25,198 bases of DNA from Candidatus Iainarchaeum sp. (GCA_003553825.1 PWFL01000023.1:1-25198); one strand, 5' to 3'. Positions 12,669 to 17,085 are shown, numbered from the stretch's first letter. Numbers and translations: made by a program. Notes: generated by a model from the letters alone, not told the origin.

Positions 12669-14561
12669 ATGACATACTTAGAAGAACTTAAAGAAGAAAT
12701 AAGAGAAGAAGTACCGGAAGAAGTGATGCTCACAAAGATAGAAGCAGAAGGATCCGACCTCGTACTATACTCAAAAAACATATCCAAACTAATCAACGAC
12801 GAAACCATAATAAAAAACCTGGCAAAGAAATTCAAAAAAAGATTCATACCAAGAACCGATGAATCAATGCTACAACCACCTGAAAAAGCAAAGGAAACAA
12901 TAGAAGAAATAATACCAAAGGACCCAGGACTAAAATCCATAGAATTCAGCCCAAGCTTCAGCAGAGTAGCGATAAAAGCGGAAAAACTAGGACTGATAAT
13001 AGGAAAAAATGGAAAAACAATCAGAGAAATAACAACAAAAACAGGATGGAAACCACAACTGCAAAGAACACCAAAAGAAGAACCACAAACACTCAAAGCA
13101 ATAAGAAAAATCCTAATAGAAGAAGAAAAAGAAAGAAAAAAAATACTGAAAGGATTTGGAGAAAAAATATTCAAGGAACCACCCGAAGAAATAGACTGGG
13201 TAAGAACCACATCACTAGGAGCAAACAGAGAAGTAGGAAGAAGCTGCTTCCTACTGGAAACACCTGAAAGCAAAGTAATGCTCGACGCAGGAGTAAAAAT
13301 AGATGGAAAGGACTCGGACAAATACCCATACCTCTCATCAATAAACTTCTCACTGGACGAATTGGACGCAGTCATAGTGAGCCACGCACATCTGGATCAC
13401 TCAGGATTCGTACCATACCTCTACAACTACGGTTACGAAGGACCGGTCTACTCAACAAAGCCAACAAGAACACTAATGACGTTACTGCAAAAAGACTTCA
13501 TAAAAATTGCTAAAAGAGAAGCAGAAAACCCACCATACGATGAAAAATCCATAAAGAAACAAATACTACGCTCCATAGCAAAAGGATACGGAGAAGTAAC
13601 GGACATAACCCCAGACATGAGATTAACACTTCAGAACGCGGGCCACATATTAGGCTCAAGCATAACACACCTACACATAGGAGAAGGAGCACACAACCTA
13701 GTGTACACCGGGGACTTAAAATTCGGATACACCGAGATGCTCAACCCAGCACACACCGACTTCCCAAGAATAGAGACCCTAATAATGGAGTCAACATACG
13801 GAGGACAAGAAGACAGACAACAAGACACGCGAAAGAGCAAAAAAGAACTAGTAAAAATAATAAAAGAAACCACGGACCGAAACGGAACAGTACTAATACC
13901 TAGCTTTGGAGTGGGAAGAGCACAAGCAATTATGCTTATACTGGAAGAAAATCACAGGAAAAATAACTTCAACGTGCCAGTATACGTGGACGGAATGATA
14001 AAAGAAGCCTCAGCAATCCACACAGCCTACCCAGAGCACTTGAAGAAAAACGTGAAAAAAAGAGTACTACACGACAAATCCCCATTCGAATCAGAAATAT
14101 TCAAGATGGTGGACAGAGACCAAAGAGACGAAATAACTGACAGAGGAAAATCAGTAATACTGTCACCAAGCGGTATGATGTCAGGAGGACCAGTAATAGA
14201 CTACTTCAAGAAACTATGCGGCGATTCAAAGAACACAATAGTCTTTGTCGGATACCAAGCACAAGGAACACTTGGAAGAAAAATAGAAAAGGGAAACAAA
14301 GAAGTGGTGCTAGAAGATCAAAACGGAGAATTAACAGAATACAAAATAAACGCGGACGTGAAATCAATATCCGGTTTCAGCGGACACGCAGATATAAATG
14401 AATTACTGGGATACTACAAAAAGATAAATCCAAAGCCGGAGAAAGTACTAGTAGTGCACGGGGAAGAGAGCAAGACAAAGAACTTTGCAAAGAGCCTGAA
14501 CTACAAATTCAACGTTGATACAATATCCCCCAGGAACCTGGAATCAATTAGATTAAAATAA
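12669..14561 (+). CDS. fttA: KH-domain beta-CASP ribonuclease aCPSF1 / transcription termination factor FttA
   Basis: N-terminal KH domains (GLIIGKNGKTIREI), LGANREVGRSC, SHAHLDHSG, AGHILGS, YTGDLK, MESTYGG, GYQAQGTLG, FSGHAD, VHGE, PRNLESIRL; 630 aa is the typical length. Confidence 0.97.
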   Translation: MTYLEELKEEIREEVPEEVMLTKIEAEGSDLVLYSKNISKLINDETIIKNLAKKFKKRFIPRTDESMLQPPEKAKETIEEIIPKDPGLKSIEFSPSFSRVAIKAEKLGLIIGKNGKTIREITTKTGWKPQLQRTPKEEPQTLKAIRKILIEEEKERKKILKGFGEKIFKEPPEEIDWVRTTSLGANREVGRSCFLLETPESKVMLDAGVKIDGKDSDKYPYLSSINFSLDELDAVIVSHAHLDHSGFVPYLYNYGYEGPVYSTKPTRTLMTLLQKDFIKIAKREAENPPYDEKSIKKQILRSIAKGYGEVTDITPDMRLTLQNAGHILGSSITHLHIGEGAHNLVYTGDLKFGYTEMLNPAHTDFPRIETLIMESTYGGQEDRQQDTRKSKKELVKIIKETTDRNGTVLIPSFGVGRAQAIMLILEENHRKNNFNVPVYVDGMIKEASAIHTAYPEHLKKNVKKRVLHDKSPFESEIFKMVDRDQRDEITDRGKSVILSPSGMMSGGPVIDYFKKLCGDSKNTIVFVGYQAQGTLGRKIEKGNKEVVLEDQNGELTEYKINADVKSISGFSGHADINELLGYYKKINPKPEKVLVVHGEESKTKNFAKSLNYKFNVDTISPRNLESIRLK

Positions 14562-14565
14562 AGGA

Positions 14566-15732
14566 TTAACTAAGGCCTGAGAGCTTTAGTTCTAATTCCA
14601 AGTCAATTTCCCCCTTCAAGTTACTAGTATCAATACTACTCCTCAAATTTCTAGGCAAGGTAATGTTAGCGCTCTCGATCGAATCAATATCTTCAAGTTC
14701 AATGAGCTTTCTGTCACCACTCATGTGCTCGGCTTCCCAAGCCAGCCTGGAAGCAACCGCGTCAACCAGGTGAATACCGGTTGATGAGCCTTCCTCTTTA
14801 ACTTTCTTAAGAGCATCAGTTATATTTGTCCTAGGAACTGTGTACAAACCACCGTTCCAAGCATATATTTCATTAAAAAGACCTTTACTAGTAGTTCCGC
14901 CTTCATTAAGAACCCATACTTGTACTACTCTATCTTTAAAACTTGTTTCAAGTAATTTGGATCTTCCTCTGGTTCCTTTCACTCTTTCCTTGGTAATTTC
15001 TTTACTGATTTTCTTCTTAACCGCTTTTCCAAATTCAGTTAAAGGAACTTTATCTATAGAAACCGATTTTGCCAGAGCTTCATCGGTTAAGGATAATACA
15101 CCAGTTAATTGAGGATATAAAGACTTTCTAGAAGATAAAGAACTTATACTAGCCAATACAGAAGCAAGATCAAGTCTTAAATATCCAACAGGATCCTCAA
15201 TGCCAAAGTTAGATAGAGTGGATAAAGAATAAAGACCGTATTCCCCTACATTATCTTCATTCAGAAGAATATCACCCCTCTTTGAAAGAGGAGAAGAAGC
15301 CACATCTCTTTTATATCCTATTGAAAAATCATGATCTGAAAGCAGAAAATTAGATATTCTCTTCATTTCATTTAGATCAACTTCATTATCAACAACTACA
15401 ACTGAGAAATTGAAACTGTTAAAAAGAGACATGGAAGAAGAAAACAACTTAATTGGAAGAGTCAAATTATTTGAAACGCATTCAAGAGTTGGGAGCCACC
15501 TGCTAGAATCCTGTAACGGGATTAACCCTCTCTTAGTCTTTATGTAGCCATCCTCATCGATTTCCTGAAGTTCAAGATCTCTTTCGGAAAGAGTATGAGG
15601 ATTCAAAACCTCTCTATATCCTCTATCCATAAGTAAGTTTGCGTATTTTTCTTCCAGTTCCCTGACTCTGCTTTTAAGACCTTTAGAGCTTGATTCACTG
15701 GATCTGGAGGAAAATTGACCTATCAACACCAT
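14566..15732 (-). CDS. sepS: Degenerate O-phosphoseryl-tRNA synthetase (SepRS)-like protein, probably catalytically inactive
   Basis: Colinear matches to SepRS as I recall it: GYREVLNP (GFxEVVNP), W..TL...LPIKLFS, GLYS..TLSNFGIEDPV (GIYSPTALAEYDIPYPV), LYPQL, LTDEALAK..IDKVPLTEFG, NEIYAWNGGLYTVPR, EEGSSTGIHLVDAVA, ANITL. The motif 2 FRRE loop and motif 3 GLGVERL are absent. The frame is intact at 388 aa. Confidence 0.8.
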   Translation of the reverse strand: MVLIGQFSSRSSESSSKGLKSRVRELEEKYANLLMDRGYREVLNPHTLSERDLELQEIDEDGYIKTKRGLIPLQDSSRWLPTLECVSNNLTLPIKLFSSSMSLFNSFNFSVVVVDNEVDLNEMKRISNFLLSDHDFSIGYKRDVASSPLSKRGDILLNEDNVGEYGLYSLSTLSNFGIEDPVGYLRLDLASVLASISSLSSRKSLYPQLTGVLSLTDEALAKSVSIDKVPLTEFGKAVKKKISKEITKERVKGTRGRSKLLETSFKDRVVQVWVLNEGGTTSKGLFNEIYAWNGGLYTVPRTNITDALKKVKEEGSSTGIHLVDAVASRLAWEAEHMSGDRKLIELEDIDSIESANITLPRNLRSSIDTSNLKGEIDLELELKLSGLS

Positions 15733-15774
15733 AGTTTAATTAATAAGGTTGCAAGTTAAATATTCAGTGGTTAG

Positions 15775-17085
15775 ATGGCAAAGGATACAGAGACAGAATG
15801 GGACAAAATTGAAGAAGTTAAAAACGATGAAAAAGTGGGAAAAGAAGTGAATCTGCGAGGATGGGTCTACAGAGAGAGATCCACGGCTAAAGTAGCCTTC
15901 ATAACTCTAAGAGACTCCACAGGAATAATACAATGTGTTTTTAAAGAAGATTCTCCTGGATTCAGAGAAGCAAGCAACACCAAGATAGAATCCAGCATCA
16001 GTATAAAAGGGAAAGTGGAGAAAGACGATAGAGCACCAGGAGGATACGAGATAAAGGGAAAAGAGATTTCACACTATCAAAAATCTGAGAAGTTCCCAAT
16101 CACTCAGGATCCTTCTACCGAGTTCCTGATGGATGCAAGACACCTATGGCTGAGGAGCAGTAAAATAAGAAAAGTTCTGAGAACAAGAGAAAAAGTTCTA
16201 GAGTACTTCAGAGAATTCTTCAAAGAAAAAAACTTTCACGAAGTACAGCCACCACTGATAACACAGGCAGGAGTGGAAGGAGGATCAACCCTATTCGATT
16301 TTGAGTACTTCGATGAAACGGCCTACCTAACACAGTCATCCCAACTATACTTAGAAGCATTCATAACTTCTTTAGAAAACGTTTATTGCATAGCACCCAG
16401 CTTCAGAGCGGAAAAATCCAGAACAAGCAAACATCTAACAGAGTACTGGCACCTGGAAGCTGAAATGGCGTGGTACGAGAACCAAGACAACATTGAATTC
16501 CAGGAAGAGATGATATCCTACGTAGCAAATAAATTAGGAGAAGAGAATCAGAAAGTTCTTAAAGACTTTGGAAGAGATCCGGAAGTGCTTAAAAGAATAG
16601 AGCCACCTTTCAAAAGACTGAGCTATACAGAAGCAATAGAAGAACTGCAAGAACAAGGACTGAAGATAGAATGGGGGGAAGACTTCGGAGCAGGACATGA
16701 AAAAGCACTTACAGAAAATGAAAAGGAACCAATAGTAATCTACAACTTCCCAAAGAAAATAAAGCCATTCTACATGCCCGAAGCGGAAAAATCAGAGGAA
16801 GAAGAAACAGTACTATGCAATGACATACTGGCACCCGAAGGATACGGAGAAATAATTGGAGGATCGGAAAGAATATGGGAACTAGAAGAACTCATGAAGA
16901 GATTAGAGGAAACAGGAACGGATAAAGAAGCTTACGAATGGTACATAGATCTCAGAAGATACGGATCAGTACCCCACTCAGGATTTGGGCTTGGAATAGA
17001 GAGAACATTATCCTGGTTATTCAAAAGAGACCACATAAGAGAGACAATAGGTTTCCCAAGAACTATCAATAGAGTTTACCCCTAA
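15775..17085 (+). CDS. asnS: Asparagine--tRNA ligase
   Basis: OB fold (LRGWV, FITLRDSTG), RHLWLRS, GVEGGSTLF, YLTQSSQLYLE, FRAEKSRTSKHLTEYW, GEIIGGSER, YEWYIDLRRYGSVPHSGFGLGIER, FPRTINRVYP. QLYLE and YGSVPH favour AsnRS over AspRS. Confidence 0.94.
   Translation: MAKDTETEWDKIEEVKNDEKVGKEVNLRGWVYRERSTAKVAFITLRDSTGIIQCVFKEDSPGFREASNTKIESSISIKGKVEKDDRAPGGYEIKGKEISHYQKSEKFPITQDPSTEFLMDARHLWLRSSKIRKVLRTREKVLEYFREFFKEKNFHEVQPPLITQAGVEGGSTLFDFEYFDETAYLTQSSQLYLEAFITSLENVYCIAPSFRAEKSRTSKHLTEYWHLEAEMAWYENQDNIEFQEEMISYVANKLGEENQKVLKDFGRDPEVLKRIEPPFKRLSYTEAIEELQEQGLKIEWGEDFGAGHEKALTENEKEPIVIYNFPKKIKPFYMPEAEKSEEEETVLCNDILAPEGYGEIIGGSERIWELEELMKRLEETGTDKEAYEWYIDLRRYGSVPHSGFGLGIERTLSWLFKRDHIRETIGFPRTINRVYP

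What the first reader, a model, noticed from the sequence alone, without database searches (positions are those of the whole stretch)
14566..15732. Intact but catalytically gutted SepRS homolog: a possible tRNA-binding pseudo-synthetase divergent from asnS
Seen: an uninterrupted 388-aa ORF whose motifs run colinear with O-phosphoseryl-tRNA synthetase (about 535 aa in methanogens and Archaeoglobus, reference recalled from memory). The losses look targeted. The N-terminal helices and the helical insertion before RSHMT are gone, and RSHMT(T/S)GW reads LQDSSRW. The motif 2 loop (IDRCFRREQ.EDA.RL after PIKLFS) is deleted, leaving PIKLFSSSMSLFNSF. Motif 3 (LGLGVERL) reads LRLDLASV. The C-terminal anticodon-binding domain is the best-conserved part (IDKVPLTEFG, NEIYAWNGGLYTVPR, EEGSSTGI), although the acidic anticodon-reading stretch (VV-EEEE-NTK) has become VL-NEGG-TTS. 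Established: the motif 2 and motif 3 arginines bind ATP in class II synthetases, and SepRS normally works with SepCysS to make Cys-tRNA(Cys); no SepCysS is in this window. Inference: clean in-frame deletions with no stops or frameshifts over 1.17 kb suggest a selected non-catalytic role, such as a tRNA chaperone, sequestering or scaffolding subunit, or a partner of a second active SepRS/SepCysS, rather than decay. The ATGs of this gene and asnS are only 42 bp apart, so they probably share a promoter region.
Basis: partly seen in the sequence, partly recalled or inferred. Interest (0 to 1): 0.8.

Follow-up and report, generated by a model that had tools for sequence, protein, structure and literature searches.

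The report
Dead, shortened SepRS relic beside asnS
A tiny soda-lake archaeon keeps, under selection, a shortened copy of the enzyme that loads phosphoserine onto cysteine tRNA; the copy has lost every part needed for catalysis but kept the tRNA-anticodon-binding domain, and relatives hold stages from working enzyme to complete loss.

Summary
ORF 14566-15732(-) encodes a 388-aa protein homologous to O-phosphoseryl-tRNA synthetase (TIGR00470 E 1.7e-24, 86 bits against a 380-bit cut-off; A. fulgidus SepRS E 2.6e-17; model Z 27.8 over 369 residues). Motif 1 survives. The helical insertion, the motif 2 loop (an 11-residue deletion), the motif 3 Arg and the Asn-x-Gly pocket are gone.

It is not a pseudogene. 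Intact orthologs of 369-432 aa occupy the same asnS/fttA slot in related DPANN genomes (Iainarchaeum/Micrarchaeota-labelled MAGs). dN/dS is 0.1-0.3, and the 42-bp shared promoter region is nearly invariant.

No SepCysS or second SepRS was found in six genomes of the family, and CysRS is present. The gene belongs to one clade that also holds 192-210-aa anticodon-domain-only forms. Its sister group holds a canonical SepRS that has SepCysS. Two relatives have deleted the gene cleanly.

Mukai et al. 2022 (PMC8762117) already described anticodon-domain-only SepRS homologs opposite asnS in Micrarchaeota. This gene is therefore a new intermediate variant of a known phenomenon.

The most likely role is a non-catalytic, dispensable tRNA-binding or scaffold protein acting through the anticodon-binding domain. 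This is untested. The earlier notes from this scan did not cover this gene family.

The parts
14566..15732 (-). sepX: 388-aa degenerate SepRS homolog (whole CDS including stop)
   Evidence: ORF; TIGR00470 E 1.7e-24; PDB SepRS E 2.6e-17; Z 27.8 to 2du5_B
15673..15732 (-). residues 1-20: low-confidence N-terminal tail; the SepRS N-terminal extension is missing
   Evidence: pLDDT below 50 for residues 1-17; structural alignment starts at model residue 13 = SepRS residue 40
15118..15672 (-). residues 21-205: remnant class II catalytic core without catalytic motifs
   Evidence: Aligns to PylRS/PheRS/SepRS cores at Z 19-20; nearly all residues invariant in the canonical core are replaced; dN/dS 0.13-0.47
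15598..15621 (-). motif 1-like GYREVLNP (residues 38-45), aligned with canonical GFEEVINP; the ~80-aa helical insertion that follows in SepRS is deleted
   Evidence: Alignment block
15436..15441 (-). junction (residues 98/99) of the 11-residue in-frame deletion that removes the motif 2 loop
   Evidence: HMMER alignment to 2du5; alignment A2 block
15145..15192 (-). motif 3 remnant PVGYLRLDLASVLASI (residues 181-196): Asn-x-Gly becomes Tyr-Leu-Arg and Glu-Arg becomes Ala-Ser
   Evidence: Alignment block; conservation table
14569..15117 (-). residues 206-388: SepRS-type anticodon-binding domain, the only module shared by the whole degenerate clade
   Evidence: HMMER domain 162-378 to SepRS 303-521; D217, P230, G235, G294, P300, G315, E335 and N356 conserved in both canonical and degenerate forms; dN/dS 0.04-0.17; PF18006 weak hit
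14899..14907 (-). residues 276-278 (N-E-G), equivalent to the G34-reading E418-E-E420 of A. fulgidus SepRS; variable among orthologs
   Evidence: Alignment to 2du5 and 2du3; block
15733..15774 (.). 42-bp divergent intergenic region with two back-to-back A/T-rich TATA-like boxes, strongly conserved
   Evidence: Sequence; 38/40 identical to G002 and similar in G001, while dS of the flanking genes exceeds 1.2
15775..17085 (+). asnS, asparaginyl-tRNA synthetase, divergent neighbour
   Evidence: NF003037 490.9 bits, above the 414-bit cut-off
12669..14561 (+). fttA (aCPSF1) transcription termination factor, convergent neighbour; its stop codon is 4 bp from the sepX stop
   Evidence: Pfam KH_TffA, Lactamase_B, Beta-Casp and RMMBL; sequence

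Best explanation
sepX is a catalytically dead, shortened descendant of O-phosphoseryl-tRNA synthetase. It is retained in a DPANN lineage (Iainarchaeum/Micrarchaeota-type, soda-lake) that charges tRNA-Cys with CysRS and lacks SepCysS.

Shown:
- It descends from SepRS and has the SepRS fold.
- It has lost the motif 2 loop, the motif 3 Arg, the Asn-x-Gly pocket, the insertion domain and the N-terminal extension.
- It is under purifying but relaxed selection.
- Its promoter region is conserved.
- Across the clade, the only invariably kept module is the anticodon-binding domain (ABD).

Inferred mechanism: the protein cannot adenylate phosphoserine or hold a CCA end. It acts through its ABD, probably as a dimer formed through the retained motif 1 face, and binds the anticodon arm of a tRNA. 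The ancestral ligand is tRNA-Cys, but the G34-reading acidic pair is lost, so specificity may be relaxed or changed. It would serve as an accessory tRNA-handling factor (holding, sequestering or handing over tRNA), co-expressed with AsnRS. The role is useful but dispensable, because sister lineages have shrunk the gene to the ABD alone or deleted it.
For: - Homology and fold.
- Motif losses.
- No SepCysS (TIGR02539) or second SepRS in G000-G005, while bona fide CysRS is present.
- Orthologs of 369-432 aa in the same asnS/fttA slot.
- NG86 dN/dS is 0.11 for the closest pair (dS 0.08) and 0.12-0.30 for the others with saturated dS. The ABD is more constrained than the core.
- The ORF is intact, with only 2 substitutions, in contigs of 4 runs from 2012-2022.
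- The intergenic core is nearly invariant.
- In the ABD tree, the 388-aa type, the mid-size forms and the ABD-only forms make one clade (98/93). Its sister group holds the canonical SepRS of G010, which has SepCysS.
- An ABD-only ORF sits in exactly the same slot in G006 and G015.
- Polar ABD residues D217, E335 and N356 are conserved from canonical SepRS to all degenerate forms, and new clade-specific constraints appear at K259, Y290, P360 and E381.
Against: - No direct evidence of RNA binding.
- The acidic residues that read G34 in A. fulgidus SepRS are not conserved even among close orthologs.
- The ABD is only mildly basic (pI 7.0; 9.3 for residues 206-340).
- dN is 3.5-4.5 times that of the neighbouring asnS and fttA.
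- The gene is cleanly deleted in G004 (same family) and G009, so any function is non-essential.
- In SepRS the ABD also docks a protein (the SepCysE N-helix, PMC5688128), so the conserved surface could serve protein binding instead.
- The AlphaFold model was built with canonical SepRS sequences in its alignment, which biases it toward the SepRS fold.
Confidence: 0.5

Rival explanations
1. SepX is an accessory subunit of AsnRS (or of AsnRS/AspRS). It acts through protein-protein contact, for example as a scaffold or regulator, rather than as a free tRNA binder.
For: Divergent pairing with asnS across the whole clade, from the 432-aa to the 192-aa forms. The shared promoter region is nearly invariant. 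In one lineage aspS lies immediately upstream of sepX with a 4-nt gap, next to asnS. Mukai 2022 also noted the asnS association. The SepRS ABD is a known protein-docking surface.
Against: The FKBP-psmB-fttA-asnS block is conserved even where sepX is absent (G004, G009, G010), so the adjacency may simply be frozen synteny. AsnRS is a full-length, ordinary enzyme (490.9 bits) with no missing domain to be supplied. No co-evolution or interface evidence was obtained.
Confidence: 0.2
2. SepX is a functionless relic in slow decay after the loss of SepCysS. The open frame persists by chance or by weak selection against toxic truncations.
For: It evolves 3.5-4.5 times faster than its neighbours. There is a progressive size series of 432, 388, 192 and 0 aa. 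All catalytic determinants are lost. It has been cleanly deleted in two relatives.
Against: dN/dS is 0.1-0.3, not about 1. A 1.17-kb frame in 38% GC DNA stays open in at least 5 genomes whose synonymous sites are saturated. The promoter is conserved. Clade-specific conserved residues exist. DPANN genomes are strongly streamlined.
Confidence: 0.08
3. SepX is still an enzyme with a different chemistry or substrate, for example a tRNA-dependent or small-molecule reaction that uses a rebuilt pocket. This was proposed for the Thermoplasmata SepRS-like proteins.
For: The core remnant is itself under purifying selection (52% identity, omega 0.13-0.47). Two pocket positions are conservatively kept (T188 to S76; S233 = S110). 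Other aaRS paralogs (AsnA, EpmA, HisZ) have taken on new roles.
Against: The motif 2 loop is physically deleted, and the motif 2 and motif 3 arginines that bind ATP in every class II enzyme are absent. Orthologs dispense with the whole core.
Confidence: 0.04

Closest known systems
Small ABD-only SepRS homologs of the Micrarchaeota pISA35 group and the degenerate SepRS homolog of the Alv-FOS5 group (Mukai et al. 2022, Front Genet, PMC8762117, section 3.3.2)
   Same: Degenerate SepRS descendants in DPANN archaea that have all twenty aaRSs. The SepRS anticodon-binding domain is retained and the gene lies opposite asnS. Function unknown.
   Different: The published asnS-linked forms consist of the ABD only (two genomes). 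This gene keeps a roughly 185-residue motif-less class II core and cleanly lacks the insertion domain. It therefore sits between the full-length degenerate form and the ABD-only form. Selection, promoter conservation and the in-slot reduction series were not reported there.
Canonical O-phosphoseryl-tRNA synthetase (A. fulgidus 2DU3, M. maripaludis 2ODR; TIGR00470)
   Same: Same fold over residues 40-534 (Z 27.8), motif 1, the ABD architecture and several invariant ABD residues.
   Different: It lacks the N-terminal extension, the insertion (tetramerisation) domain, the motif 2 loop, the motif 3 Arg, the Asn-x-Gly Sep pocket and the E418/E420 G34 readers. There is no SepCysS partner. It scores 86 bits against a 380-bit cut-off.
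Thermoplasmata SepRS-like proteins (Mukai et al. 2022, section 3.3.1)
   Same: SepRS paralogs in genomes without SepCysS, with the Asn-x-Gly pocket replaced (Tyr-Ile-Asn there, Tyr-Leu-Arg here).
   Different: Those are full length, keep the ATP motifs, sit in a TRAX operon, and are proposed to charge another amino acid. This one cannot bind ATP.
Non-catalytic aaRS paralogs such as HisZ (HisRS-like regulator of HisG) and the catalytic-like module of the PheRS beta subunit (PF17759)
   Same: A class II core that has lost its catalytic motifs but is kept for a structural or regulatory role. There is a weak PF17759 hit and Z 18.7 to PheRS beta 3ica.
   Different: No known partner enzyme. The conserved element here is the tRNA anticodon-binding domain, not the core.

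Membership tests
SepRS (TIGR00470 sepS equivalog) | Whole-protein score above the curated cut-off (380.65 bits) | tested here: not met
   86.2 bits
SepRS (TIGR00470 sepS equivalog) | Class II motif 2 loop with the ATP-binding Arg (FRREQ..D..HL) | tested here: not met
   11-residue deletion directly after PIKLFS
SepRS (TIGR00470 sepS equivalog) | Class II motif 3 GxGxER with the ATP gamma-phosphate Arg | tested here: not met
   Reads LDLAS; E190 and the following Arg are replaced
SepRS (TIGR00470 sepS equivalog) | Asn-x-Gly phosphoserine-pocket motif | tested here: not met
   Reads Tyr184-Leu-Arg186
SepRS (TIGR00470 sepS equivalog) | SepRS-specific C-terminal anticodon-binding domain | tested here: met
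   HMMER domain 162-378 to SepRS 303-521, i-Evalue 1.5e-13; structural alignment through chain residue 534
SepRS (TIGR00470 sepS equivalog) | Anticodon G34 readers (E418/E420 of A. fulgidus SepRS) | tested here: not met
   N276/G278 here; variable among orthologs
SepRS (TIGR00470 sepS equivalog) | Co-occurrence with SepCysS (TIGR02539) | tested here: not met
   Not found in G000 (68% complete) or G001-G005 (62-91% complete). Found over the cut-off in G010 and G014 of the same order
SepRS (TIGR00470 sepS equivalog) | Phosphoserine adenylation and tRNA-Cys charging activity | not testable with these tools
   Needs ATP-PPi exchange and aminoacylation assays
asnS-linked degenerate SepRS homologs of Micrarchaeota-type DPANN (Mukai 2022) | Homolog of the SepRS ABD in a DPANN (Micrarchaeota-group) genome that has CysRS | tested here: met
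   Orthologs lie on records titled Ca. Iainarchaeum archaeon and Ca. Micrarchaeota archaeon; CysRS is present
asnS-linked degenerate SepRS homologs of Micrarchaeota-type DPANN (Mukai 2022) | Gene adjacent to asnS in the opposite direction | tested here: met
   42-bp divergent spacer; the same arrangement in G001, G002, G005, G006, G015 and L037
asnS-linked degenerate SepRS homologs of Micrarchaeota-type DPANN (Mukai 2022) | Consists of the ABD only (about 190-210 aa) | tested here: not met
   388 aa with a remnant class II core. It groups in one clade with the ABD-only forms (98/93)
Free-standing tRNA-binding proteins | Binds tRNA without catalysis | not testable with these tools
   Inferred only from retention of the ABD

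The most novel reading that the evidence does not exclude
The 432, 388 and 192-aa series marks the birth of a free-standing anticodon-arm-binding protein family from a dead synthetase. The family would be co-transcribed with AsnRS (and in one lineage with AspRS) and would have switched its tRNA specificity away from GCA. It could then help AsnRS/AspRS or CysRS discriminate or capture tRNAs in ultra-small DPANN cells.
Probability: 0.15. Interest if true: 0.7.

Novelty: new variant of a known kind. Interest (0 to 1): 0.5.

Why it matters
SepRS is central to ideas about the early genetic code and is a workhorse of genetic-code expansion. Mukai et al. 2022 explicitly left open what the non-canonical SepRS homologs do.

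This locus supplies a missing intermediate and an ordered natural deletion series in one genomic slot. The stages are: canonical enzyme with SepCysS, motif-less core plus ABD, ABD alone, and nothing. There is evidence that the intermediates are kept by selection.

The series points to the anticodon-binding domain as the functional unit. It also gives small, defined proteins (388 and 192 aa) for direct tRNA-binding tests. Finally, it shows how an indirect aminoacylation pathway is dismantled after CysRS takes over.

Tried and rejected
1. The first AlphaFold run, on a 4-sequence alignment, gave pLDDT 47 and was discarded. A 63-sequence alignment gave pLDDT 89.
2. Domain pI and charge were uninformative.
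3. I looked for RNA-seq evidence. Only DNA metagenome runs hold the locus, so expression is untested. The contigs served only to show that the ORF is intact.
4. A second independent origin of the ABD-only form (P0022, sister of the 432-aa P0007) rests on a 924-bp contig with stops upstream. It is suggestive, not established.
5. I asked whether canonical sepS occupies the fttA/asnS slot in the family (f6) that still has SepRS and SepCysS. It does not: the slot is empty in G010 and holds small membrane ORFs in G014. In-situ decay and duplication or translocation therefore cannot be told apart.
6. I considered that shorter PheRS alpha genes in this family (420-442 aa) might be compensated by SepX. 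I rejected this because ABD-only genomes have a normal-length PheRS alpha and an outgroup with canonical SepRS also has a short one.
7. I could not map conserved residues onto the tRNA interface of 2DU3, because no coordinates were available. Residue-level anticodon contacts beyond E418/E420 were not found in open papers.
8. Earlier scan notes held nothing on this gene family.

Full report
**What is there.** The minus strand of 14566..15732 carries an uninterrupted 388-codon ORF. Its ATG lies 42 bp from the divergent asnS ATG (15775; NF003037 490.9 bits). Its stop lies 4 bp from the stop of the convergent fttA/aCPSF1 gene. The window is contig C10 of a 474-kb, 59-contig, 68%-complete genome. 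Orthologous loci sit on records titled Candidatus Iainarchaeum archaeon and Candidatus Micrarchaeota archaeon. The same DNA occurs in soda-lake and salt-lake metagenome runs from 2012 to 2022. The host is therefore a DPANN archaeon from soda lakes.

**Homology.** Pfam gives only sub-threshold hits (SepRS_C E 0.003; PheRS-beta CLM E 0.018). NCBIfam TIGR00470 (sepS) matches at E 1.7e-24, but with 86 bits against a 380.65-bit cut-off. phmmer against PDB sequences finds only SepRS chains, the best being A. fulgidus 2du5 at E 2.6e-17. An AlphaFold model built on a 63-sequence alignment has pLDDT 89 and pTM 0.77. Its best matches are A. fulgidus SepRS (Foldseek E 4e-29; VIA-align Z 27.8, 369 residues, model 13-385 on chain 40-534). 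PylRS and PheRS cores match only residues about 3-215 (Z 19-20). One caveat applies: the alignment used for folding contained canonical SepRSs.

**Anatomy.** This comes from the alignment of 63 cluster representatives found by an exhaustive HMMER search.
- Motif 1 is kept: GYREVLNP against canonical GFEEVINP.
- The roughly 80-residue helical insertion that follows is absent.
- LRSHMTxxW reads LIPLQDSSRW.
- PIKLFS is followed by an 11-residue deletion that removes the motif 2 loop (xRxFRREQxxDxxH).
- PVFNxGxGxER reads PVGYLRLDLAS, so the Asn-x-Gly pocket and the motif 3 Arg are both lost.
- A column-by-column comparison shows that almost every residue at least 85% conserved in canonical cores is replaced in the degenerate clade. 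In contrast, ABD residues D217, P230, G235, G294, P300, G315, E335 and N356 are conserved in both groups. K259, Y290, A327, P360 and E381 are conserved only in the degenerate clade.
- The E418/E420 pair that was mutated in 2du5 to retarget the anticodon aligns with N276/G278 here, and these positions vary among orthologs.

**Not a pseudogene.**
- Word-indexed and exhaustive searches found orthologs of 387-388 aa at 53-57% identity and a 369/383-aa one at 32%.
- They occupy the same slot, asnS divergent and fttA convergent, in G001, G002, G005 and in several metagenome contigs.
- Nei-Gojobori dN/dS is 0.11 for the closest pair (dS 0.08) and 0.12-0.30 for the others, where dS is saturated.
- By domain, dN/dS is 0.04-0.17 for the ABD and 0.13-0.47 for the core.
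- dN is nevertheless 3.5-4.5 times that of asnS and fttA. AsnRS is 82% and FttA 85% identical where SepX is 54% identical. Constraint is real but relaxed.
- Contigs from four runs carry the ORF with two substitutions (one synonymous, one R152S) and no indels.
- The intergenic core AGTTTAATTAATAAGGTTGYAAGTTAAATAT is 38/40 identical between G000 and G002 and close to that in G001, although synonymous sites are saturated. It holds two A/T-rich boxes, each about 25-35 bp upstream of the opposite start codon. This fits back-to-back archaeal promoters, which is an inference.

**Pathway context.**
- No second sepS is present in the genome. The other TIGR00470 hit is a PheRS-alpha-like gene.
- No SepCysS was found in G000 or in any of five other genomes of the family, which are 62-91% complete.
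- CysRS is bona fide in all of these genomes. In G000 it is a fragment at a contig end.
- In the same order, family f6 (G010, G014) has bona fide SepRS (465-473 bits) and SepCysS (545-549 bits) clustered with cysS.

**Evolutionary series.** A maximum-likelihood tree of the ABD gives one clade with 98/93 support. It contains the 369-388-aa type, mid-size degenerate forms (P0007 at 432 aa, P0009 at 429 aa, P0015, P0028) and six ABD-only proteins of 192-210 aa. Its sister group contains P0023, which is the canonical SepRS of G010 (464.8 bits).
- P0009 lies on a 1.08-Mb contig in the same asnS/fttA slot.
- P0007 lies in asnS <- -> aspS-sepX -> <- fttA, 4 nt downstream of aspS.
- In family f2 (G006, G015) a 192-198-aa ABD-only ORF occupies exactly the same slot.
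- In G004 (same family, another genus) and G009 the gene is gone, and fttA and asnS are 19-28 bp apart.
- In G010, which has canonical sepS elsewhere, the slot is empty.
- A separate clade of full-length but motif-degenerate SepRS-like genes without SepCysS exists in other orders of the class (f9/f10).
Degeneration of SepRS after the loss of SepCysS is therefore recurrent here. In this order it runs through progressively smaller forms in which only the ABD is always kept.

**Literature.** Mukai et al. 2022 (PMC8762117, section 3.3.2) reported two things in Micrarchaeota. One is a highly degenerate SepRS homolog in an Alv-FOS5-group archaeon. [quoted passage not shown] They proposed a supporting role for other aminoacylation systems and listed the function as an open question. 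The phenomenon is therefore known. The new elements are:
- the intermediate architecture (motif-less core plus ABD, with the insertion domain removed);
- the evidence for selection;
- the conserved promoter region;
- the in-slot series that includes clean loss;
- the canonical sister lineage with SepCysS in the same order.

**Mechanism.** It is shown that the protein cannot perform class II chemistry, because the ATP-binding arginines and the acceptor-binding loop are absent. It is inferred that it works through the ABD, most simply by binding a tRNA anticodon arm, and possibly as a dimer through the retained motif 1 face. Specificity for GCA is doubtful because the G34 readers are gone.

The link to AsnRS is suggestive: a conserved shared promoter, and aspS-sepX coupling in one lineage. 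It is weakened by the fact that the FKBP-psmB-fttA-asnS block persists without sepX. The ABD also docks a protein (SepCysE) in methanogen SepRS (PMC5688128), so a scaffold role is a live rival. The clean deletions show that the function is dispensable.

**Verdict.** This is a new variant of a known kind, of moderate interest.

Noticed in passing
window 15733-15774: The 42-bp sepX/asnS spacer is almost invariant among congeneric genomes whose synonymous sites are saturated. It has two A/T-rich boxes, each 25-35 bp upstream of the opposite ATG, so it looks like a compact bidirectional archaeal promoter.
   Followed up: partly
L035 814-4750 (also L036): In a related metagenomic lineage, aspS (non-discriminating type) is inserted between asnS and a 432-aa sepX, with a 4-nt gap to sepX. 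This gives an asnS / aspS-sepX cluster.
   Followed up: partly
G010:C3:11993-20596 (L028) and G014:C24 (L029): Family f6 of the same order keeps bona fide cysS, SepCysS and sepS within about 9 kb on one contig. Both the direct and the indirect Cys-tRNA routes therefore coexist there.
   Followed up: partly
G018, G019, G023, G024, G026-G029 (L018-L023): Other orders of the class carry full-length (480-545 aa) SepRS-like genes that score 95-329 bits, below the cut-off, with degenerate motifs 2 and 3 and no SepCysS. This is a second, independent degenerate clade. In G018 the gene lies 2 kb from cysS.
   Followed up: partly
G000:C28:3759-4202 (L002) and relatives: PheRS-alpha-like ORFs are 420-442 aa in this family, against about 500 aa in most relatives. 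The missing part was not examined.
   Followed up: no
window 13061-13923: Runs X1 and X3 also hold a second contig about 90% identical over fttA (88 differences in 863 bases), so a co-occurring sister strain is present. No such second contig was laid over sepX at the 88% threshold.
   Followed up: no
window 14559-14568; L008 9150-9167: The fttA and sepX stop codons are 4 bp apart here, and the two genes overlap convergently by 18 bp in a congener.
   Followed up: no
L039 119-2000: A 391-aa degenerate SepRS-like gene (P0008), which groups with the canonical P0023 in the sister group of the degenerate clade, lies 2 nt downstream of a ThiF-family (PF00899) gene instead of next to asnS.
   Followed up: no
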